Shown: piece after piece, positions 35,783 through 58,283 of the stretch
How the letters are laid out: each line of letters opens with the position of its first letter
How positions within the stretch are numbered: position 1 is the stretch's first letter
Assembly: GCF_044324875.1 (NCBI RefSeq)
Contig: NZ_CP172187.1
Reading direction: 5' to 3' (one strand)
Source: Escherichia coli
GTDB taxonomy: Bacteria; Pseudomonadota; Gammaproteobacteria; Enterobacterales; Enterobacteriaceae
Length of the DNA stretch: 64,000 nucleotides
The notes under the pieces: model-generated
What the model was told of the DNA's origin: nothing
Seen by the model: only the letters and a program-made list of their open reading frames with translations
Databases searched by the model: none
Position numbers and translations under genes: made by a program

Positions 35783-36405
35783 AGAATAACCTCTTTCACT
35801 AACGCTTCGATTTCTTGCTGGGCTTTATCATTTTGCGTTTCAAAAATTGTCATTGATTCGGCCCAAGCATCTCGATGTGCTTTACGATCACATACCCGGG
35901 AGTTTGCCAGATGCATTTCAGGGTAATCCTTAAGTACTTCAGCTGCCTCATTGGCTTCATTAACAAACATATTTGTGGGCGTCATGTTTAAAACGAGATA
36001 TCCCCGAACATCCTCATTAAAATCTTTTGCTGCTGTAAAAACGGAGCATGTATGAGGCACAACATCCAGGTCCATCTGAGATGGGCGCAAAGGAGAAATG
36101 AATACATCTGCGGCCATCAATCCACTACGCATTTCTGCGCTATCACGGCCAGCACAGTCTGCAATAACAAAATCATAGGATTTTTCGTGTTCCTTTAACA
36201 TGGCTTTGATGTTACCTGTCGCGCCTGTAACCGGAATATGAGGGAGATCTTCAGGGCGATTGTTGTACCAGGTTAATACTGATTTCTGGTCATCTGCGTC
36301 GACAATAATCACTCTATTGCCTAGTGACATCAGATACGCAGCTATAGATACCGCCAGTGTACTTTTACCTACCCCACCCTTTTGACTACCTAATACTATT
36401 ATCAT
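35779..36405 (-). CDS. parA: ParA-family partition ATPase (type Ib)
   Basis: 208 aa with deviant Walker A GSQKGGVGKST. Confidence 0.85.
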   Translation of the reverse strand: MIIVLGSQKGGVGKSTLAVSIAAYLMSLGNRVIIVDADDQKSVLTWYNNRPEDLPHIPVTGATGNIKAMLKEHEKSYDFVIADCAGRDSAEMRSGLMAADVFISPLRPSQMDLDVVPHTCSVFTAAKDFNEDVRGYLVLNMTPTNMFVNEANEAAEVLKDYPEMHLANSRVCDRKAHRDAWAESMTIFETQNDKAQQEIEALVKEVIL

Positions 36406-36529
36406 TATAGCCTCATATTAAGTTGTTAAGTTAACAACTTAATATTGCCATCTGAACGCGAATCATGCAATTATTTTTGTTATATTAACAACTTAACAAG
36501 TTATTAAGTATTTGATTTATAGATTAATT

Positions 36530-36585
36530 AATATAACAAGATAACAAGATAACAAGATAACAAGATAACAAGATAACAATATTAT
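36530..36585. repeat. Partition centromere-like iteron array upstream of parA (8-bp ATAACAAG units)
   Basis: Six tandem GATAACAA units; palindromic operator-like sequence at 36420-36450. Confidence 0.55.
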
Positions 36586-38597: not shown

Positions 38598-38863
38598 CTA
38601 ATAACTGAATCCACACACAGTCAAATGTCATTATTGTGACTAAAAAACGCTCAATTCTCTGAGGGTGTGGCTGTATGCCTGCTGTGGACTGCTGTGTCCA
38701 GCTTATCCACAGCATTTTGCGCACGGTTCTGTGAATAAAATACCTGGTTACCCAGGCCGTGCCGGCACGTTAACCGGGCTGCATCCAATGCAAGTGTGTC
38801 GCTGTCGCCGGCATCCTCACCAGGTCACTCAGCAGTCAGGGAGAAAAATGGCGGATGAAGTAT

Positions 38864-39217
38864 GACGGAGACGGTCGGGCAAGTGCCCGTTTCTTTTCCG
38901 ACAAAGGATGTCGCCGTGCTCCTCTTTTTACTGCGCCGGCTGACGCGGCGCGGCATAAACGCTGCCTGTGGTCAGTGTCCCGCGTCCGGCGGGCACGGGA
39001 CGGGCGCTTTTACCGCTCCCGGCTGGCGTCGGTGACAGTGTACGCCAGCCCGTCGCCCTTTTCTGATGAACGCCCTTCAAGCCGCTTTCGCGGCATAGCC
39101 TTGCCGTCAAAAAGACGACGGCTGCGGTATTCCACGGTCGGCCTGACCCGTTACCGGACGCGGTGAACAGCCCACAGGCAGCGGGGAACGGGCACCACAG
39201 GGGGGCCCTCCCGGTGC
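38864..39217 (+). repeat. Leading-region GC-rich repeat, family A copy 1 (354 bp)
   Basis: Near-identical to 40169-40522; immediately upstream of a gene start. Confidence 0.75.
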
Positions 39218-39221
39218 TCCT

Positions 39222-40163
39222 GTGAGGAGAATTCCCATGCCAAACTGGTGCTCAAATCGTATGTATTTTTCTGGTGAACCAGCACAGATCGCTGAGATTA
39301 AACGACTGGCCAGCGGTGCAGTCACACCGCTTTATCGCCGCGCCACAGATGAAGGTATTCAGCTGTTTCTGGCCGGTAGTGCCGGACTTCTGCAGACCAC
39401 TGAAGATGTGCGGTTTGAACCATGCCCCGGACTGACGGCTGCCGGACGTGGTGTTGTATCGCCGGAGAATATCGCGTTCACCCGCTGGCTGACACACCTG
39501 CAGAACGGTGTGCTACTGGATGAAAAAAACTGCCTGATGCTGCATGAACTCTGGCTGCAGAGTGGTACTGGCCAGCGTCGCTGGGAAGGATTACCGGATG
39601 AGGTCAGGGAAAGCATCACCGTGCATTTCACCGCCAAAAGAGGTAACTGGTGTGGCTTCTGGAGTAACGAGGATGTATCGGTGTGGTGGAACCGTCTGTG
39701 TGACAATGTACTGCCGGAAAAAACCATGCCGTTTGACCTGCTGACGGTTCTGCCCACCCGCCTGGATGTTGAAGTGAATGGCTTTAACGGTGGTGTTCTG
39801 AACGGTGTTCCTTCTGCGTATCACTGGTATACGGAACAGTATGGCGTGAAGTGGCCTGTGGGGTATGAGGTGAATATCAGCAGTCAGGGAGACAACTTCA
39901 TTCAGGTTGATTTCGACACGCCGTGGTGTCAGCCGGAAAGCGACGTTATTGCAGAATTAAGCCGCCGTTTCAGTTGCACACTGGAGCACTGGTATGCCGA
40001 GCAGGGCTGCAATTTCTGTGGCTGGCAGCGATATGAGCGTGGAGAGCTTGTTGATGTCCTGTGGGGGGAATTGGAATGGTCTTCCCCGACAGATGACGAT
40101 GAGCTGCCGGAAGTCACCGGACCTGCGTGGATTGTCGACAAGGTGGCGCATTACGGTGGATGA
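39222..40163 (+). CDS. Hypothetical leading-region protein (313 aa, Trp/Cys-rich)
   Basis: Good RBS GAGGAG; sits between the two family A repeats. Confidence 0.5.
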   Translation: MRRIPMPNWCSNRMYFSGEPAQIAEIKRLASGAVTPLYRRATDEGIQLFLAGSAGLLQTTEDVRFEPCPGLTAAGRGVVSPENIAFTRWLTHLQNGVLLDEKNCLMLHELWLQSGTGQRRWEGLPDEVRESITVHFTAKRGNWCGFWSNEDVSVWWNRLCDNVLPEKTMPFDLLTVLPTRLDVEVNGFNGGVLNGVPSAYHWYTEQYGVKWPVGYEVNISSQGDNFIQVDFDTPWCQPESDVIAELSRRFSCTLEHWYAEQGCNFCGWQRYERGELVDVLWGELEWSSPTDDDELPEVTGPAWIVDKVAHYGG

Positions 40164-40168
40164 ATTCT

Positions 40169-40522
40169 GACGGAGACGGGCGGGCAACCGCCCGTTTCTT
40201 TTCCGACAAAGGATGTCGCCGTGCTCCTCTTTTTACTGCGCCGGCTGACGCGGCGCGGCATAAACGCTGCCTGTGGTCAGTGTCCCGCGTCCGGCGGGCA
40301 CGGGACGGGCGCTTTTACCGCTCCCGGCTGGCACCGGTGACAGTGTACGCCAGCCCGTCGCCCTTTTCTGATGAACGCCCTTCAAGCCGCTTTCGCGGCA
40401 TAGCCTTGCCGTCAAAAAGACGACGGCTGCGGTATTCCACGGTCGGCCTGACCCGTTACCGGACGCGGTGAACAGCCCACAGGCAGCGGGGAACGGGCAC
40501 CACAGGGGTGCCCTCCCGGTGC
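40169..40522 (+). repeat. Leading-region GC-rich repeat, family A copy 2 (354 bp)
   Basis: Near-identical to 38864-39217. Confidence 0.75.
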
Positions 40523-40546
40523 CTTCTGTAAGAGAAGGAGGCTTTT

Positions 40547-41230
40547 ATGTCCCGTTTTATCCTGGGTGACTGCGTGCGAGTTATGGCCACGTTTCCGGAC
40601 AATGCTGTCGATTTCATCCTCACCGACCCGCCGTATCTCGTCGGTTTCCGTGACCGTTCCGGGCGCACCATTGCCGGTGACGTTAACGATGACTGGTTGC
40701 AACCTGCCAGCAATGAGATGTACCGCGTACTCAAAAAAGACGCTCTGTTGGTCAGCTTCTACGGCTGGAACCGTATTGACCGCTTTATGGCGGCCTGGAA
40801 ACGCGCCGGATTCAGCGTGGCAGGGCACCTCGTGTTCACCAAAAACTACACATCCAAATCTGCGTATGTCGCGTACCGCCACGAATGCGCCTACATCCTG
40901 GCAAAAGGCCGTCCACGTCTGCCACAAAACCCGCTGCCGGACGTGCTGGGCTGGAAATATTCGGGCAATCGTCATCACCCGACGGAAAAGCCTGTTACCA
41001 GCCTGCAACCGCTGATTGAGAGCTTCACACACCCGAACGCAATTGTGCTGGACCCGTTTGCAGGCAGCGGCTCAACCTGCGTTGCCGCCCTCCAGTCCGG
41101 ACGCCGGTATATCGGTATCGAGCTGCTTGAGCAGTATCACCGTGCCGGACAGCAACGACTGGCTGCCGTTCAACGGGCCATGCAGCAGGGGGCCGCGAAT
41201 GATGACTGGTTTATGCCGGAGGCTGCGTAA
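40547..41230 (+). CDS. Orphan DNA methyltransferase (amino-methyltransferase with DPPY motif)
   Basis: 227 aa; FILTDPPYLVGF motif and C-terminal AdoMet motif VLDPFAGSGSTCVAA; no adjacent restriction enzyme. Confidence 0.75.
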   Translation: MSRFILGDCVRVMATFPDNAVDFILTDPPYLVGFRDRSGRTIAGDVNDDWLQPASNEMYRVLKKDALLVSFYGWNRIDRFMAAWKRAGFSVAGHLVFTKNYTSKSAYVAYRHECAYILAKGRPRLPQNPLPDVLGWKYSGNRHHPTEKPVTSLQPLIESFTHPNAIVLDPFAGSGSTCVAALQSGRRYIGIELLEQYHRAGQQRLAAVQRAMQQGAANDDWFMPEAA

Positions 41231-42487: not shown

Positions 42488-42903
42488 TGACACTGGCGGG
42501 GTAAATCCCCGCCTTTTTCCTGCCGGTCCCCGGACAGAGCACAAAGGAAGTCGCCGCCGGCTCCGCTTTACCCGGCCATGCGGGGCATGGCCTTGTGGAT
42601 TTTCAGTTATGTGGCCTCAGCGTCGTGTGCGGGCTGTGCCGTGCCTCCATCGTAGCCGGGCTTCTGCGGGCGGGTTGCAAGGTAAGGTGAACCGCTGCGG
42701 TCACCCGGTCCCTCCTTCCCGTCTGCCGTGATTTTCCGGTCGTTCACCCGCTCAGATTTCGCGGTCTCACCCTCCAACTCCCGCCAGCCGTGTGCGTCAG
42801 GCTGCGGCTTCCCTTGCGCCCTTGCAACCCTGCAGGCCCGGCAAAGATGGAGGCACGGCACCGCCCGGTGTCGCGGAATATGTGAACAACGGAGGAAAAC
42901 ATC

Positions 42904-43329
42904 ATGCAATATGCGAAACCTGTCACTCTGAATGTTGAAGAGTGCGACCGTCTGTTTTTTCTGCCTTACCTGTTTGGCCAGGATTTTCTGTATGCCGAGG
43001 CATCTGTGTACGCGCTGGCGAAAAAAATGATGCCGGAATATGACGGCGGATTCTGGCACTTCATCCGCCTGCCGGACGGTGGCGGTTACATGATGCCGGA
43101 TGGCGACCGTTTTCATCTGGTCAACGGTGAAAACTGGTTTGACCGTACGGTCAGCGCCGATGCCGCAGGCATCATTGTGACTTCCCTTGTGATTAACCGT
43201 CAGTTGTGGCTGTACCACGACAGCGGTGATGCAGGACTGACTCACCTGTACAGGATGCGCGATGCGCAGTTGTGGAGCCACATCGAATTTCACCCCGAAT
43301 GCAATGCGATTTACGCGGCACTGGACTGA
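42904..43329 (+). CDS. KlcA/ArdB-family antirestriction-like protein
   Basis: 141 aa; pattern FLPYLFG...[19 protein letters not shown]...[10 protein letters not shown]...NAIYAALD parallels RK2 KlcA. Confidence 0.65.
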
Positions 43330-43986: not shown

Positions 43987-44183
43987 TACAGGGGCAGGCG
44001 GTGGAGGCCGCCTGTCAGCCCGCGCGAAAACCCCTGGCAGGCTGACGCCTGCCGGAAGGGAAGCGGGCCACGCTGGCGCGTCGCCCGTTACCCTTCCCGT
44101 CTGTGATGTGTCTGACTCAGGAGTGTTTCTTTCTTATGTTGCGGAACTGTTCCTGATGTTGTTGTTGTTCCTTTATCTGCTGC

Positions 44184-44788
44184 TCTGATTCTGACTACTG
44201 CAGTGTTGTTCTGTCTGCCGGGCGCACCTTCGGCTCCCGGCTGCCTGGCGGCATCCGGTCGTCAGGCCCGACTCCGACAGGCAGCTGCTGGCGCACCTGC
44301 CAGTCTCCGCCGAACCCGCTGGCGCGGCTTCGGGCTGCCGCTACGGTCCGATGCGTGAAAACCCCGGGCTTGCAGCGACCGTTCTGGTCGCGCCGCCTCT
44401 GTCGCGCCGTGGCCTGCGCTCCAGGCATCCCGGCAAAAAGACGCCGGGATGTAAGGCGCAACGCCGTTTCGCAAACCGCGCTTCACGTCGTTGCTGCGGG
44501 TCCCTGCTCATTGCCTGCCGGGTGCCACACACCCGTATGAGTCCCTGTCGCCGGGGGCATAGACAGCCACAACCTGCCGCACTGACTGTCCAGGGTAAAT
44601 GAACAGCCCACAAAATTTTTTACCCAAAACCCGGTAAAAAATTTTGCGTTCTGCCCAGGACAGGTGCGTCAGGCCGTGGCAGTGATGCCCCTTGCGGCGA
44701 AGGTTCTCAAACGGGTGAAGTTCATACCACAGGGAATACAGCAGCAGGTTCCCGCGAAACGTCAAAACCGCGGCTCCCGAAACTCAAC
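44184..44788 (+). repeat. Leading-region GC-rich repeat, family B copy 1 (about 605 bp), candidate ssDNA promoter (Frpo-like)
   Basis: Near-identical copies at 47544-48147 and 55606-56210, each immediately upstream of a gene. Confidence 0.7.
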
Positions 44789-45027
44789 GGGTGATGTTCT
44801 TTAAAAATCAGGATTTATTTCAGGCTCCGGCAATACGCATTTATGTGTTCTGTCAGTCATCCGGCTGGCAGGTAATGAGAACGCAGGAACAGAAGGAGGA
44901 AAACACCGGAGAACGTCAGACGCAGATATGAAAAAAGCAGGCCGGGGAGGACCTGCTTAATCCACACCGCAAAAACTGTTCGAGCAGTTTCTGCGGTTCC
45001 ATTCAACAGTCATAAGGAGTTTCATTT

Positions 45028-47281: not shown

Positions 47282-47460
47282 TGACACAGGGCTGGCGGGA
47301 GGATAAATGCCCGTCTGTCCGCGCCGGGAAAAGACCGCGCGCCGGTGGCGCTGAAAGGGGCCGCGCTCACGCGCCGCCCCTTTCATTACGCGGACGTTCT
47401 GATGGGGGCTTCTGTCTTTTCAGACCTGTCATTTGTCTGTTACTGATGATGTTGTTGTTC

Positions 47461-47526
47461 CTGCTACTGCTACTGCTACTGCTACTGCTACTGCTACTGC
47501 TACTGCTACTGCTACTGCTACTGCTC
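47461..47526. repeat. Hexanucleotide tandem repeat (CTGCTA)x11
   Basis: Perfect 66-bp array; absent from the corresponding position in the other two family B copies. Confidence 0.85.
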
Positions 47527-47543
47527 TTCTTTTTCCTGCTGCT

Positions 47544-48147
47544 CTGATTCTGACTACTGCAGTGTTGTTCTGTCTGCCGGGCGCACCTTCGGCTCCCGGC
47601 TGCCTGGCGGCATCCGGTCGTCAGGCCCGACTCCGACAGGCAGCTGCTGGCGCACCTGCCAGTCTCCGCCGAACCCGCTGGCGCGGTTTCGGGCTGCCGC
47701 TACGGTCCGATGCGTGAAAACCCGGCTTGCAGCGACCGTTCCGGTCGCGCCGCCCCTGTCGCGCCGTGACCTGCGCTCCAGGCATCCCGGCAAAAAGACG
47801 CCGGGATGTAAGGCGCAACGCCGTTTCGCAAACCGCGCTTCACGTCGTTGCGGCGGGTCCCTGCCCGTTGTTGTGTCCGGTGCCATTCACCTGTTTAAGC
47901 CCCTGTCGCCGGGGGCTGATACAGCCACAACCTGCCGCACTGACTGTCCAGGGTAAATGAACAGCCCACAAAATTTTTTACCCAAAACCCGGTAAAAAAT
48001 TTTGCGTTCTGCCCAGGACAGGTGCGTCAGGCCGTGGCAGTGATGCCCCATGCGGCGAAGGTTCTCAAACAGGTGATGGTGAATACCGGAGGGAACAAAG
48101 AGCAGGTCCCCGCAAAACGTCAAAACCGCGGCTCCCGAAACTCAACA
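47544..48147 (+). repeat. Leading-region GC-rich repeat, family B copy 2, immediately upstream of ssb
   Basis: Near-identical to 44184-44788 and 55606-56210. Confidence 0.7.
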
Positions 48148-48187
48148 GATGATGGGGGCTGAAAACATCAACAGAAGGAGACACATC

Positions 48188-51100
48188 ATGGCAGTTCGTG
48201 GCATTAACAAGGTCATTCTTGTCGGTGTGCGCCGTTGAAGCGCGGTGTTTTATGGAGTGTTGCCTGAAAAGCAACATGGCTTAGTGGTATAGCCATTGCA
48301 TACTGTGGTTAGCCTTGCTTGGTAACAGGCTCGGAGATCCTGAAAAGGAGAGGTGAACATAGCATCCACAGAAAAGGGTGGTGAATATGGAAATCGTTAT
48401 AAGTATCACCATTCAATGCAAGATGTATATGGATAAACTGGGTTTGTTGAAGTCGAGATCTATGTGGGAAACAGGAAACCAATAACGCAGAACGATTGAA
48501 GCGTTATTCCCGTACTAGCACAAGAAATCCGTCCGACGTTGATTGTGACCACTCTAACGGGCCAGCTATTGATGAAATAGTTAAACGATCGAAAGACATC
48601 CTAAGTACATCGCATCTCCACACCGTGAAACTACGGGACTACCTAAACTGGATTTATACCCAGCATGGTAGCGGAGTCTCCATAGTACTCAAGGTCGGCC
48701 TGTAATGGGTTCCGGCAGTCCGCATTATACGGAAGCAGCAAAGGTATAAATCAACCGGAAGGAAGATGAAAGCCTCACAGTGCTGCGGGGAAGGGAGACA
48801 GTTGTTAGATACATCAATCTCTAAGAGGAGGGTTAGCCAATGCTGCCTGATGAACTTGAGAAAAGATTAGATGGAATTGAGGATGCTTCAAAAAAAGGGT
48901 ATCCAGTACGTAATCTATACAAAATTGCGTGTGAGCCCGGACTGTGGCTGCAAGCCTACGTGAATATACGGGCCAATGCAGGTGCACTGACTCAAGGTGT
49001 ATCAACAGATACCATTGATGGCTTTTCTATCGAAAGAGCAGAGAAGCTGGCAAAAACATTGCGGAGTAGAGAATACGTAGCGAAACCTGTACGCAGAGTT
49101 CAGATCCCAAAAAAGGACGGAAAAACCAGACCGCTGGGGATTCCAGGTGGAGACGATAAACTGGCGCAAGAAGTAGCAAGAATTATTCTGGAAAGGGTTT
49201 ATGAACCAGTATTCTCTGAACACTCTCATGGATTCAGACCAAAACGTTCGTGTGAAACTGCGCTCAGATCTATTCGTCCAGTCTGGAACGGAGTTAAATG
49301 GATCGTGGATGTTGATATCAAAGGTTTCTTTGACAATATCCCCCACAAACTATTGCTGAATACACTGGCAGAGAAAATTAAGGATAAGAATTTCCTGAAA
49401 TTAATCGAACAGTGGCTGAAGGCAGGATATGTGGACAATTGGAAATACCATCGCTCATATTCTGGCACGCCACAAGGTGGGATAATTTCTCCCTTACTGG
49501 CAAATATATACCTCGACAAACTGGACCGTTTTGTAGAACAGAATTTAATTCCTGCATATACAAGCGGTACAAAACGAAGAGCGAATCCAGATATGAACAG
49601 GCTGGCCCATAAGATTCATAAACTACGAAAGAAAGTAGACGGTATGGCAACTGATTCTGAATCAGAAAAAGAAGCCATAAAGAAAGAAATTGAACGACTG
49701 CTTGAAGAAAAACGTTCTATACCATCTCAGGTCATGAACGATCCAAACTTCAGGCGTATGTACTATGTTCGATATGCTGATGACTTCGTAATCGGTGTCA
49801 TCGGCTCGAAGAAAGATGCTGAACATATATCAAGACAGGTCAGAAACTTTATTACTACTTCACTGGGATTGGAAGTTAATGAAGCAAAGACCAGGATCCG
49901 CCATATCTCAGAAGGAGTTAATTTTTTAGGCTATGAAATCAGACAGGCAGATGCAAAGAAATTGCTGAAGCAGAAAATGCAAGGGCGGCACGCTCTCCGG
50001 AGATCCACCACAGGAATTGTGCAGCTCTTCGTTCCTGACAATATAGCCGCTAAATTTTGTCACCAAAAGAAATATGGCTGTTATGAGAATGTGAAGGCTG
50101 TACATCGTTCAAGTCTACAAAATCTCAGTGAAGCTGAAATTGTTCTGACTTTCAACGCGGAAATGCGCGGATTGGCGAACTACTACAGTCTGGCGCTGGA
50201 CATGAAATATAAATTATCAAAATTATATTTCATATGGCAAATAAGCCTTTTTAAGACCCTGGCGAATAAACGACGTAGTTCAGTGAATAAAGTCGCCAAA
50301 TCGCTACGGCAAAATAATGGAGATCTGGCTATTACCGTTCAGGCCAAAAATGGATCCCGAAAGATTGAGGTTTTCAAACTCAAACATGTCAATCGCAACC
50401 GAACAACGATTGTCGATACGGAACCGAGAACCGCACATATCACAACCCGCACAACAGAGATCATGCGTCGATTAGGGGCAAGGATCTGCGAGTATTGTGC
50501 GAAGACTGGGCGCTGCGAAGTACATCATGTCAGAAAGCTAAAAGACCTGAAGAAAGGTCGTAAGGCCGGATATAAACCCAGCTTGTGGCAACTAATGATG
50601 ATCGCACGCCGCCGGAAAACGATGATTTTGTGCGCAAGTTGCCACGACAAGTTACATAGCGGAAAACTACCCGATTTGAGACAGGAAAAGGGAAGAATAC
50701 TCCTGCAACCACCTGTCTCAAGCGGGGATTCTGCTAAATGAGTTTATCCCCAATAAGCTAGCAATGGAGAGCCGTATGCACTGAAAGGTGCACGTACGGT
50801 TCGGAGGGGGGGTAACGGTGATCTAACTCAAGATAAGCAGGACATATTCGCCATTTATCTTGAAAGACCACACGTACCCTACCCTACCGTCTGGGAAAAG
50901 ATCCGGAAGTCCGTTACATCCCAAACGGGGGCGCAGTGGCAAACCTGCAGGTGGCCACGTCAGAAAGCTGGCGCGACAAACAGACGGGGGAGATACGGGA
51001 GCAGACAGAATGGCATCGCGTGGTGCTGTTCGGCAAGCTCGCGGAAGTGGCTGGTGAGTATCTGCGCAAGGGCGCGCAGGTCTACATCGAAGGTCAGCTT

Positions 51101-55329: not shown

Positions 55330-55605
55330 CAACCTGGAGGCGGGCGCAGGCCCGCCTTTTCAGGACTGATGCTGGTCTGACTACTGAAGCGCCTTTATAA
55401 AGGGGCTGCTGGTTCGCCGGTAGCCCCTTTCTCCTTGCTGATGTTGTACGGGCATGAACAACCTGACTTCAGGAAGGTCGTTTCCCTTCAGGAACGGGGA
55501 TGAACGCGCGCCTGCGGCGCCCGTTCTTTTCCCCCGCCTTCTCTGGTTATGGCCTGTCAGAAATCACATCACCTTCCCTGTGATTATTCTCTTTTTCTTC
55601 CTGCT

Positions 55606-56210
55606 CTGATTCTGACTACTGCAGTGTTGTCCTGTCTGCCGGCGCACCTTCGGCTCCCGGCTGCCTGGCGGCATCCGGTCGTCAGGCCCGACTCCGACAG
55701 GCAGCTGCTGGCGCACCTGCCAGTCTCCGCCGAACCCGCTGGCGCGGTTTCGGGCTGTCGCTACGGTCCGATGCGTGAAAACCCCGGGCTTGCAGCGACC
55801 GTTCCGGTCGCGCCGCCTCTGTCGCGCCGTGGCCTGCGCTCCTGGCATCCCGGCAAAAAGACGCCGGGATGTAAGGCGCAACGCCGTTTCGCAAACCGCG
55901 CTTCACGTCGTTGCTGCGGGTCCCTGCCCGTTGTTGTGTCCGGTGCCATTCACCTGTTTAAGCCCCTGTCGCCGGGGGCTGATACAGCCACAACCTGCCG
56001 CACTGACTGTCCAGGGTAAATGAACAGCCCACAAAATTTTTTACCCAAAACCCGGTAAAAAATTTTGCGTTCTGCCCAGGACAGGTGCGTCAGGCCGTGG
56101 CAGTGATGCCCCATGCGGCGAAGGTTCTCAAACAGGTGATGGTGAATACCGGAGGGAACAAAGAGCAGGTCCCCGCAAAACGTCAAAACCGCGGCTCCCG
56201 AAACTCAACA
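55606..56210 (+). repeat. Leading-region GC-rich repeat, family B copy 3
   Basis: Near-identical to copies 1 and 2. Confidence 0.7.
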
Positions 56211-56249
56211 GATGATGGGGGCTGAAAACCAGAGAGAGGAGAAAGCTGG

Positions 56250-57520: not shown

Positions 57521-57773
57521 TATTATCATTTTTCGGCATTGCTGTGTCGTCTGATATACCTCAATTTCATCGACCGGCTTTCCGGTTGTCTGTAAATATT
57601 GTGCCCGCGAAAAATGGTCTGGCAGGAGGCTGCGCAGTTACCGGGTATATATAAGATGGGTTCCCGCTTCGCGGGGCTTCGGCCAGTCAGTATTGTCACT
57701 CATATGATATTTTTGTGTGTGGCCTTCCATGCCGCTTTTGCGGCATAACCGGTATCTGACAATGTCTGTAAGA

Positions 57774-58283
57774 TTAATTGTTCTGCACGCTGTTAATTTC
57801 CGGAAGTGATTTCTTCGTGGCCGGAAGCCGGATACCTTTACTGCTTTTTATCCCGGTATAAATCCGGTAAACCTCTGATGCGTAGGCAAGACGTCTCTGG
57901 TTCTGGCGTTCGGATTTCCTGAATCCTGCATTGTATGCACCAACGGCCTCCCAGGTGACGCCCCATTTTTTAAATGCTATTGCCAGATAATAAGCACCGG
58001 TATAAATGTTCATGCAGGGATCTGTTGTCAGATGTTCTGGCTTAATTCCGTAGCGGGCCAGTTCGTTAAAATGCTGGGAATCTACCTGCATCAGTCCGCT
58101 GCCATATCCCGTTACCGGATTAATACCGATGGCATTAACCCGGTAACGGGATTCTTTCCATGATATTGCTCTCAGTAAATCAGGATCTATTTTGTAATCC
58201 CGGCCTGCAAGATCAAAGCAATCAGTGGCATGGCAGATCTCATTTATAAACATCAGGCAGATGGCTAACATCCATTTTTTCAT
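57774..58283 (-). CDS. Lytic transglycosylase (F orf169 / gene X homolog)
   Basis: 169 aa from [12 protein letters not shown]...; SLT motif AISWKESRY. Confidence 0.85.

What the first reader, a model, noticed from the sequence alone, without database searches (positions are those of the whole stretch)
38864..40522. Second repeat family: two 354 bp GC-rich direct repeats flanking a 313 aa ORF
38864-39217 and 40169-40522 are near-identical and each precedes a gene start (39222 ORF and the DPPY methyltransferase at 40547). Recombination between them would excise the 313 aa gene; they may also act as ssDNA promoters or terminators.
Basis: seen in the sequence. Interest (0 to 1): 0.45.

Follow-up and report, generated by a model that had tools for sequence, protein, structure and literature searches.

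The report
Duplicated class-3 single-stranded-DNA promoter
The two GC-rich repeats are two copies of an already described hairpin promoter that works only while a conjugative plasmid is still single-stranded in a new host; here a second copy sits in front of a neighbouring gene, and recombination between the copies can delete that gene.

Summary
Windows 38864-39217 and 40169-40522 differ at 6 of 354 bases, and the repeat extends to 38850-39231 / 40155-40536.

The window is an IncFII/F-like plasmid, and the repeats lie in its leading region. Copy B is the orthologue (96.6% to pESBL, 94% to F) of the spacer 5' of the M.EcoGIX methyltransferase. Wen et al. (NAR 2025) showed by RNA-seq and 5'RACE that this spacer is a "class 3" ssDNA promoter (ssp3).

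Copy A is a segmental duplicate that still carries the last 12 nt of the DUF1281 ORF. It replaces the native region upstream of DUF1281.

Diverged homologues from nine other genera show:
- a three-way-junction hairpin kept by compensatory changes;
- selection on the transferred (minus) strand only (G·T 97 versus A·C 4);
- no conservation of the 103-aa ORF that PGAP annotates inside the element.

Only 68 PLSDB plasmids carry the copy-A junction. At least five carry the predicted recombinant, a hybrid A/B copy with DUF1281 gone.

The kind of element is known; the duplication is a minor new instance.

The parts
38850..39231 (.). Repeat copy A, full extent. It is a segmental duplicate of the DUF1281-methylase spacer and now lies upstream of DUF1281.
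   Evidence: blastn 96.6% over 383 nt to copy B. It is absent from pESBL, pMTY9803 and F, which have about 103 nt of other sequence in place of window 38829-39220.
40155..40536 (.). Repeat copy B, the orthologue of the class 3 ssDNA promoter (ssp3) 5' of M.EcoGIX.
   Evidence: Same synteny as pESBL (DinI, DUF1281, element, methylase). 96.6% identical to pESBL and 94% to F.
38829..38858 (+). Remnant of a DUF1281 3' end at the left junction of copy A: 18 nt resembling 39877-39895, then AATGGCGGATGA, which is the last codons plus the stop.
38872..38897 (+). Intrinsic-terminator-like hairpin plus TTTCTTTT, copy A (stem CGGGC/GCCCG).
   Evidence: The three A/B differences here (repeat positions 12, 20 and 21) keep a hairpin in both copies.
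40177..40202 (+). Intrinsic-terminator-like hairpin (CGGGCGG-GCAA-CCGCCCG) plus TTTCTTTT, copy B, 14 nt after the DUF1281 stop codon.
   Evidence: Read directly from the sequence.
38960..39183 (-). T-strand three-way-junction hairpin of copy A: basal stem 38960-38999 / 39147-39183 and two apical branches.
40265..40488 (-). T-strand three-way-junction hairpin of copy B.
39071..39097 (-). Invariant apical core TATGCCGCGAAAGCGGCTTGAAGGGCG in copy A. The copy B equivalent is 40376-40402.
   Evidence: Identical in 20 of the 22 aligned copies, with a single substitution in Kgri_up and Cama_MT.
38974..38979 (-). Candidate -10 element GACACT (CACACT in most homologues) on the 3' arm of the basal stem. 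The copy B equivalent is 40279-40284. This is an inference.
   Evidence: Its second base (A) and sixth base (T) face conserved mismatches: C·A in 20/21 and T·T in 20/21.
39174..39178 (+). Predicted transcription start (A39176/G39177), about 7 nt downstream of the candidate -10. The copy B equivalent is 40479-40483. This is an inference and was not checked against the published 5'RACE.
   Evidence: Geometry derived.
39222..40163 (+). DUF1281 (YubB/YccB/YfdA-type) gene between the repeats. The likely start is ATG 39237.
   Evidence: It belongs to family 27 of the leading-region-enriched families in Samuel et al..
40547..41230 (+). DPPY DNA methyltransferase, 93% identical to pESBL M.EcoGIX.

Best explanation
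Each repeat is one complete copy of a class 3 single-stranded-DNA promoter module (ssp3) of the conjugative leading region.

How it is thought to work. During conjugation the minus strand of this window enters the recipient 5'-first from oriT. On that strand, 38960-39183 and 40265-40488 fold into a three-way-junction hairpin of about 224 nt. Host RNA polymerase treats the basal stem as a promoter and transcribes rightwards, out of the base of the stem into the downstream gene. Complementary-strand synthesis then irons the hairpin flat and switches expression off.

What is shown and what is inferred. Shown elsewhere for the pESBL and F orthologues: early induction, a 5'RACE start site, and portability. 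Shown here: homology, position, strand, fold, covariation and non-coding status. Inferred here: a -10-like hexamer (G/C)ACACT on the 3' arm, whose A(-11) and T(-7) equivalents are held unpaired by conserved mismatches, placing the start near 39176 / 40481.

Other parts of the unit. Each unit also begins with a plus-strand intrinsic terminator, so it insulates as well as promotes.

Origin and consequence of the duplication. Copy B is the ancestral copy and drives the M.EcoGIX-type methyltransferase. Copy A arose by segmental duplication. It replaced half of the native upstream region of DUF1281, so DUF1281 now has the same promoter but keeps its own ribosome-binding site. As direct repeats in double-stranded DNA, the two copies are a substrate for homologous recombination that deletes DUF1281.
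For: Context. traJ 5'UTR, FinP and sok, IncFII RepA and F ssiD/ssiE homologues on the minus strand fix the leading region and show that the T-strand is the minus strand. All leading-region genes are on the plus strand.

Homology. Synteny with pESBL is identical. The element is 96.6% identical to pESBL, the methylase is 93% identical to M.EcoGIX, and the element is 94% identical to F.

Literature. The hairpin 5' of M.EcoGIX is the class 3 ssDNA promoter, with RNA-seq induction and a 5'RACE start site, and is conserved in F (PMC12672017). ssp3 can functionally replace ssp2.

Fold. MFE is -103 kcal/mol with z -5.1, and z -3.9 for the core alone.

Covariation. In 22 copies from 10 genera, 64 pairs are 96.1% paired, 14 pairs show changes on both sides, 0/500 shuffles reach the observed value, and slid controls give 33-46% paired.

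Strand specificity. G·T 97 versus A·C 4. The consensus fold is -89.2 kcal/mol on the minus strand versus -62.7 on the plus strand. All 21 sequences fold better on the minus strand. The A/B difference at repeat positions 165-166 turns two Watson-Crick pairs into G·T wobbles on the minus strand only.

No conventional promoter. The scan found no sigma-70 consensus site on either strand of 38600-40700.

Recombination. Hybrid single-copy plasmids lacking DUF1281 exist.

Independent precedent. In Citrobacter freundii and C. werkmanii plasmids a diverged class 3 copy also sits directly upstream of a 45%-identical DUF1281 homologue.
Against: No experiment exists for this plasmid or for copy A.

I could not read the published 5'RACE coordinate, because the figure is not held. 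My -10 and start-site assignment is therefore untested.

No TTGACA-like -35 lies at the right distance on the same arm. A second -10-like hexamer (TACACT / TAAAAT) sits in the loop of branch 2 and could be the real one.

The central about 80 nt are invariant, so their pairing cannot be tested by covariation.

Wen et al. list six induced operons in pESBL and do not name DUF1281 among them. Early expression may therefore not be the ancestral state of that gene.
Confidence: 0.85

Rival explanations
1. The repeats are two copies of a small protein-coding gene, the 103-aa 'hypothetical protein' that PGAP annotates inside the element in thousands of plasmids.
For: An ORF of 103 aa (38855-39166) and one of 114 aa (40127-40471) exist. 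They are annotated as WP_032141194.1, WP_001310011.1 and others in related plasmids.
Against: Variable sites are spread evenly over codon positions: 37/69, 40/69 and 33/68. Homologues differ by indels of 1, 2 and 4 nt. The frame is broken in most homologues. There is no NCBIfam match. Substitutions instead follow base-pairing on the opposite strand.
Confidence: 0.03
2. The structure acts at the RNA level on the plus strand, as a structured 5' leader, attenuator or riboswitch of the downstream mRNA, rather than as folded DNA.
For: The plus strand also folds well (-102.6 kcal/mol, z -4.3). A genuine plus-strand terminator hairpin sits at the 5' end of the unit.
Against: Non-Watson-Crick cells are G·T on the minus strand 97 times and A·C only 4 times. 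On plus-strand RNA these would be A·C mismatches. The consensus fold is 26 kcal/mol weaker on the plus strand, and 21/21 sequences fold better on the minus strand. There is no Rfam match.
Confidence: 0.05
3. The element is mainly a single-strand initiation (priming) signal for complementary-strand DNA synthesis, recognised by primase or used through an RNA polymerase primer. Gene expression would be secondary. This is not exclusive of the best explanation.
For: Frpo/ssiD serves both roles (Masai and Arai 1997, as cited). The invariant apical core shares a motif of about 30 nt with the F ssiE homologue at 57721-57750 and with a site about 0.8 kb downstream of IncFII repA. The core contains the GCGAAAGC mini-hairpin, which is also present in stem-loop I of the phage G4 complementary-strand origin.
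Against: The published data show mRNA and a start site for the orthologue. The 2026 preprint reports early transcription-dependent conversion downstream of the ssp1a and ssp1b promoters; the passages I retrieved say nothing of the kind for ssp3, only that it has no roadblock activity. Similarity to G4 is limited to the mini-hairpin, and blastn against phages found nothing significant. The nature of ssiE rests on my memory and was not verified.
Confidence: 0.1
4. The repeats are copies of a small mobile element (MITE-like) that inserted twice.
For: The element is GC-rich, is present in more than 5000 plasmid records, sometimes occurs twice per record, and contains a 30-nt inverted repeat.
Against: The inverted repeat is internal, not terminal. 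Copy A carries the last codons of DUF1281, so it was copied together with its flank. The element is always found in one orientation and one context, upstream of leading-region genes. No target-site duplication is visible at the junctions.
Confidence: 0.02

Closest known systems
Class 3 ssDNA promoter / ssp3 of pESBL-EA11 and F (Wen et al., NAR 2025, PMC12672017; bioRxiv 10.64898/2026.01.09.698686)
   Same: Same sequence family (96.6% identical to pESBL, 94% to F). Same position 5' of the M.EcoGIX-type methylase. Same strand. Both form a large T-strand stem-loop.
   Different: This plasmid has a second copy, transplanted in front of DUF1281. pESBL and F have one copy and a different 103-nt sequence upstream of DUF1281.
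Frpo / ssiD / ssi1-3 (class 1 ssDNA promoters; Masai and Arai 1997; Bates et al. 1999; Couturier et al. 2023)
   Same: Same logic: a leading-region hairpin on the T-strand that RNA polymerase reads as a promoter, active only before double-strand conversion. Class 1 is also present as near-identical direct repeats that could recombine. Couturier et al. make that same point for Frpo1 and Frpo2.
   Different: No sequence homology. Class 1 is a simple long hairpin with an A/T-rich UP-like apex, whereas class 3 is a GC-rich three-way junction. Class 1 occupies 44452-44785, 47809-48158 and 55872-56221 in this window.
Class 2 ssDNA promoter / ssp2 (upstream of klcA/ardB/yfgB)
   Same: Same region and same function.
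   Different: Unrelated sequence. In the window it lies at 42540-42874. ssp2 acts as a replication roadblock, and ssp3 is reported not to.

Membership tests
Class 3 ssDNA promoter (ssp3) | Sequence homology to the segment 5' of M.EcoGIX in pESBL and its counterpart in F | tested here: met
   96.6% over 385 nt to pESBL. 94% over 384 nt to F. The methylase is 93% identical to M.EcoGIX.
Class 3 ssDNA promoter (ssp3) | Lies in the leading region, with the downstream gene templated by the transferred strand | tested here: met
   oriT-side markers lie at 57.6-59.3 kb. The genes are on the plus strand. F ssiD and ssiE match the minus strand.
Class 3 ssDNA promoter (ssp3) | Large, stable stem-loop on the transferred strand | tested here: met
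   MFE -103 kcal/mol with z -5.1. Covariation: 14 pairs changed on both sides, 0/500 shuffles. T-strand bias: G·T 97 versus A·C 4.
Class 3 ssDNA promoter (ssp3) | Reconstituted -35 and -10 boxes in the stem | tested here: inconclusive
   The consensus scan found no site. There is a conserved (G/C)ACACT with mismatch-exposed A and T. No convincing -35 was found.
Class 3 ssDNA promoter (ssp3) | Transcription starts inside the hairpin in fresh transconjugants and stops after double-strand conversion | not testable with these tools
   Reported for the pESBL orthologue only.
Frpo / class 1 ssDNA promoter | Homology to F ssiD or ColIb-P9 ssi1-3 | tested here: not met
   blastn with the five reference sequences hits only the three-copy family and ssiE, not 38850-39231 or 40155-40536.
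Protein-coding gene (PGAP 'hypothetical protein') | Reading frame and codon-position pattern conserved in diverged homologues | tested here: not met
Rfam RNA families | Match at the gathering threshold | tested here: not met
   The six Rfam hits in the window all lie outside the repeats.

The most novel reading that the evidence does not exclude
Class 3 elements may be bifunctional three-way DNA junctions. The basal stem would be a promoter whose -10 bases are pre-flipped by conserved mismatches. The invariant apical branch, which shares a motif of about 30 nt with ssiE and with a site downstream of the IncFII origin, would be a priming signal for complementary-strand synthesis. Duplicating the module would then add both an early-expressed gene and a second priming site, and would create a recombination switch that gains or loses DUF1281.
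Probability: 0.15. Interest if true: 0.5.

Novelty: new member of a known kind. Interest (0 to 1): 0.3.

Why it matters
The finding matters mainly as annotation. A non-coding element of about 380 nt, present in more than 5000 sequenced enterobacterial plasmids, is routinely called a 'hypothetical protein'. It is in fact a strand-specific DNA structure that times anti-restriction methylase expression during plasmid entry.

The duplication shows that these promoter modules are portable in nature, as they are in the laboratory swap ssp2::ssp3. It also shows that direct repeats of them make leading-region gene content unstable.

The comparative data collected here give testable handles on how RNA polymerase reads class 3 elements: the covarying basal stem, the conserved mismatches opposite an ACACT motif, and the invariant core.

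Tried and rejected
- Rfam gathering scan: nothing at the repeats.
- blastn of all Frpo, ssi, Frpo' and Frpo* sequences from Samuel et al. against the window. None matches the repeats. They identify the class 1 copies, ssiE and the class 2 hairpin instead.
- Sigma-70 consensus scan: no site on either strand.
- The supplement of Wen et al. is not held, so the mapped +1 could not be compared with my prediction.
- Accessions AP001918.1, NC_001420.1 and J02454 are not in the collections. NC_002483.1 and V00657 were used instead.
- blastn of the ssiE-like motif against phages: only chance-level hits. Comparison with the G4 origin shows only the shared GCGAAAGC mini-hairpin, so I do not claim a G4-type site.
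- A junction-spanning -35 was considered: TTGA at alignment columns 128-131 stacked on CC at columns 209-210, giving a spacer of 18-19. It is too speculative to list as a part.
- The weak collinear blast hits between the repeats and the class 1 family (E 1-3.6) were judged to be chance.

Full report
**Observation**

The similarity begins 14 nt earlier and ends 14 nt later, giving 38850-39231 and 40155-40536 (96.6% over 383 nt). A profile built from the family finds exactly these two copies in the window. Copy A ends just before the 313-aa ORF (GTG 39222, probable ATG 39237, stop 40163). Copy B ends just before the 227-aa DPPY methyltransferase (40547-41230).

**Context**

The window begins with IncFII repA. 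It carries the traJ leader, FinP and sok at 55-59 kb. It also carries homologues of F ssiE (57591-57779) and of F ssiD/Frpo (47809-48158, 55872-56221, 44452-44785), all on the minus strand.

The segment from about 38 kb to 58.5 kb is therefore the leading region of an F-like plasmid. The transferred strand is the minus strand, and the leading genes, all on the plus strand, are templated by it. The neighbourhood is ParA, UmuC, UmuD, a DinI-like protein, DUF1281, a DNA methylase, then DUF1380 and antirestriction genes. This is the same order as in IncI1 pESBL-EA11, in IncK2/Z plasmids and in F.

**Identity of the element**

In pESBL the only intergenic segment 5' of the methylase M.EcoGIX is 96.6% identical to the repeat. 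The window's methylase is 93% identical to M.EcoGIX. F has the same element at 94%.

Wen et al. (PMC12672017) report that the hairpin 5' of M.EcoGIX has no homology to Frpo and drives one of six operons induced within 15 min of transfer. It has a 5'RACE-mapped start and is conserved in F. They name it the class 3 ssDNA promoter. A 2026 preprint calls it ssp3 and shows that it can replace ssp2 and still drive the downstream gene.

Copy B is thus an orthologue of a characterised element. None of the Frpo-like sequences listed by Samuel et al. matches it.

**Origin of copy A**

pESBL, pMTY9803 and F lack copy A. Window 38829-39220 is replaced there by about 103 nt. Together with 38753-38796, this 103-nt sequence forms a weaker T-strand hairpin.

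Copy A starts with AATGGCGGATGA, the last codons and stop of DUF1281. This is preceded by 18 nt resembling an internal DUF1281 segment. It ends where the DUF1281 ribosome-binding site resumes.

Copy A is therefore a segmental duplicate of the DUF1281-methylase spacer. It replaced the promoter-proximal half of the native upstream region and kept the gene's own RBS.

The copy-A junction occurs in only 68 PLSDB records, whereas the element itself occurs in at least 5000.

**Recombination**

I searched with a synthetic deletion product (left flank of A, one repeat, right flank of B). Contiguous full-length matches at 96.7-97.8% were found in five plasmids.

In pHN7DS11 the gene order is DinI, element, methylase, with no DUF1281. 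Its single copy has the A-type junction and A-type bases at repeat positions 12, 20-21 and 165-166. It has the B-type base at position 341 and the B-type right flank. This is the signature of a crossover between the two copies.

pSTEC405 lost DUF1281 by a different deletion that shares the same left breakpoint.

**Structure**

Each copy folds on the minus strand into a long hairpin (38960-39183; -103 kcal/mol for the whole unit, z -5.1).

To test whether the fold is selected, I collected methylase loci from one genome per species. Homologues of the core at 72-85% identity were found upstream of the methylase in Citrobacter, Erwinia, Entomohabitans, Edwardsiella, Raoultella, Enterobacter, Buttiauxella, Klebsiella grimontii and Hafnia. 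Several of these loci have a second copy further upstream.

The 22-sequence alignment gives a consensus three-way junction. Results of the pair count:
- 64 pairs, 96.1% paired;
- 14 pairs changed on both sides;
- 0 of 500 shuffles reach the observed value;
- slid controls give 33-46% paired.

The covariation lies in the basal stem and in the hairpin of branch 2. The central roughly 80 nt are invariant in sequence, so their pairing is untestable.

**Strand**

Among non-Watson-Crick cells, G·T occurs 97 times and A·C 4 times. The consensus fold is -89.2 kcal/mol on the minus strand against -62.7 on the plus strand. All 21 sequences fold better on the minus strand. Within the window, the A/B difference at positions 165-166 converts two Watson-Crick pairs into G·T wobbles on the minus strand only. 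The structure is therefore selected on the transferred DNA strand, not on the mRNA.

**Coding test**

PGAP annotates a 103-aa hypothetical protein inside the element. Variable sites are spread evenly over codon positions (37/69, 40/69, 33/68). Homologues differ by indels of 1, 2 and 4 nt, and the frame is interrupted in most of them. There is no family match. The ORF is an artefact of GC-rich non-coding DNA.

**Mechanism (inferred part)**

No sigma-70 consensus site exists on either strand of the duplex. This fits the report that the methylase is silent in established hosts.

On the 3' arm of the basal stem, which would be the non-template strand for rightward transcription, there is a conserved (G/C)ACACT. 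Its second base (A) and last base (T) lie opposite conserved C·A and T·T mismatches. From established knowledge of sigma-70, these are the two -10 bases (A-11 and T-7) that sigma flips out of the helix. A stem that holds them unpaired would act as a pre-melted promoter.

This places the start near A39176 and A40481, giving leaders of 61 and 66 nt. I could not check it against the published 5'RACE. A rival -10 (TACACT/TAAAAT) sits in the loop of branch 2.

Each unit also opens with a plus-strand terminator hairpin and T-run. In copy B this terminator follows the DUF1281 stop codon.

**Comparison and novelty**

The element is a member of the class 3 / ssp3 family by homology, position, strand and fold. 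The boxes and the activity are untested here. It works like Frpo but is not homologous to it.

A class 3 copy directly upstream of a 45%-identical DUF1281 homologue also occurs in Citrobacter plasmids. Placing DUF1281 under this promoter type is therefore recurrent.

The kind of element is known. What is new is minor: the particular duplication, its natural recombinants, and the comparative evidence for a T-strand-specific three-way junction.

Noticed in passing
window 44163-44811, 47522-48169, 55583-56232: A three-copy direct-repeat family of about 650 nt. Its cores (44452-44785, 47809-48158, 55872-56221, minus strand) are 80-87% identical to F ssiD/Frpo, so these are class 1 ssDNA promoters. 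The window therefore has three class 1 copies, one class 2 copy and two class 3 copies.
   Followed up: partly
window 42540-42874 (inverted repeat 42630-42661 / 42836-42867): A hairpin upstream of the antirestriction-like ORF 42904-43329. It is 79% identical to the candidate 'Frpo' 4' of Samuel et al., so it is probably the class 2 (ssp2) promoter.
   Followed up: partly
window 57721-57750, 1682-1713, 39071-39100 and 40376-40405 (minus strand): A motif of about 30 nt, TATGCCGC-NNNN-GCGGC(A/T)TG(G/A)AAGGC, is shared by the invariant core of the class 3 element, the F ssiE homologue, and a site about 0.8 kb downstream of IncFII repA. From memory, that last position is where the R1 primase 'G site' lies. 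What the three have in common is not established.
   Followed up: partly
window 38753-38828; L004 3340-3575: This is the remaining left half of the native region upstream of DUF1281. In pESBL the intact region folds on the T-strand (-55.5 kcal/mol, z -2.9). Part of it (window 38756-38821) resembles the candidate 'Frpo* 1' of Samuel et al. at 79% over 67 nt. It may be a weaker ssDNA promoter that copy A displaced.
   Followed up: partly
L006 (pSTEC405_1) 2670-2720 versus window 38823-38828: An independent loss of DUF1281 uses the same left breakpoint (after GGTCAC) as the copy-A junction. It is fused directly to the last 13 nt of the DUF1281 ORF. This suggests a deletion-prone point, perhaps at the loop of the native hairpin.
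   Followed up: no
window 36522-36585: About six tandem 8-nt units (AAGATAAC), plus nearby inverted TTAAGTTGTTAA motifs (36415-36504), lie between parA (35779-36405) and umuC. They are probably the partition site or operator of the ParA system.
   Followed up: no
window 47437-47559 and 44147-44194: A run of CTGCTA / 12-nt tandem repeats lies immediately upstream of a class 1 promoter copy. Its role is unknown.
   Followed up: no
window 50767-50887: Rfam reports a group II intron catalytic domain inside the leading region, just after the 633-aa ORF 48840-50741.
   Followed up: no
L007, L008, L017, L031, L032: Contigs labelled Collinsella, Oscillibacter, Oscillospiraceae and Streptomyces morookaense carry this enterobacterial plasmid methylase at 86-95% amino-acid identity. 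L007, L008 and L032 also carry the class 3 element at 96-99% nucleotide identity. This is most likely contamination or mis-binning in the public assemblies.
   Followed up: no
window 38895-38925 (AAGGATGTCGCC) and Samuel et al. Frpo' 4 and Frpo* 3: The short motif GGCGACATCCTT (T-strand) recurs on the 3' side of otherwise unrelated ssDNA-promoter candidates. It is unexplained.
   Followed up: no
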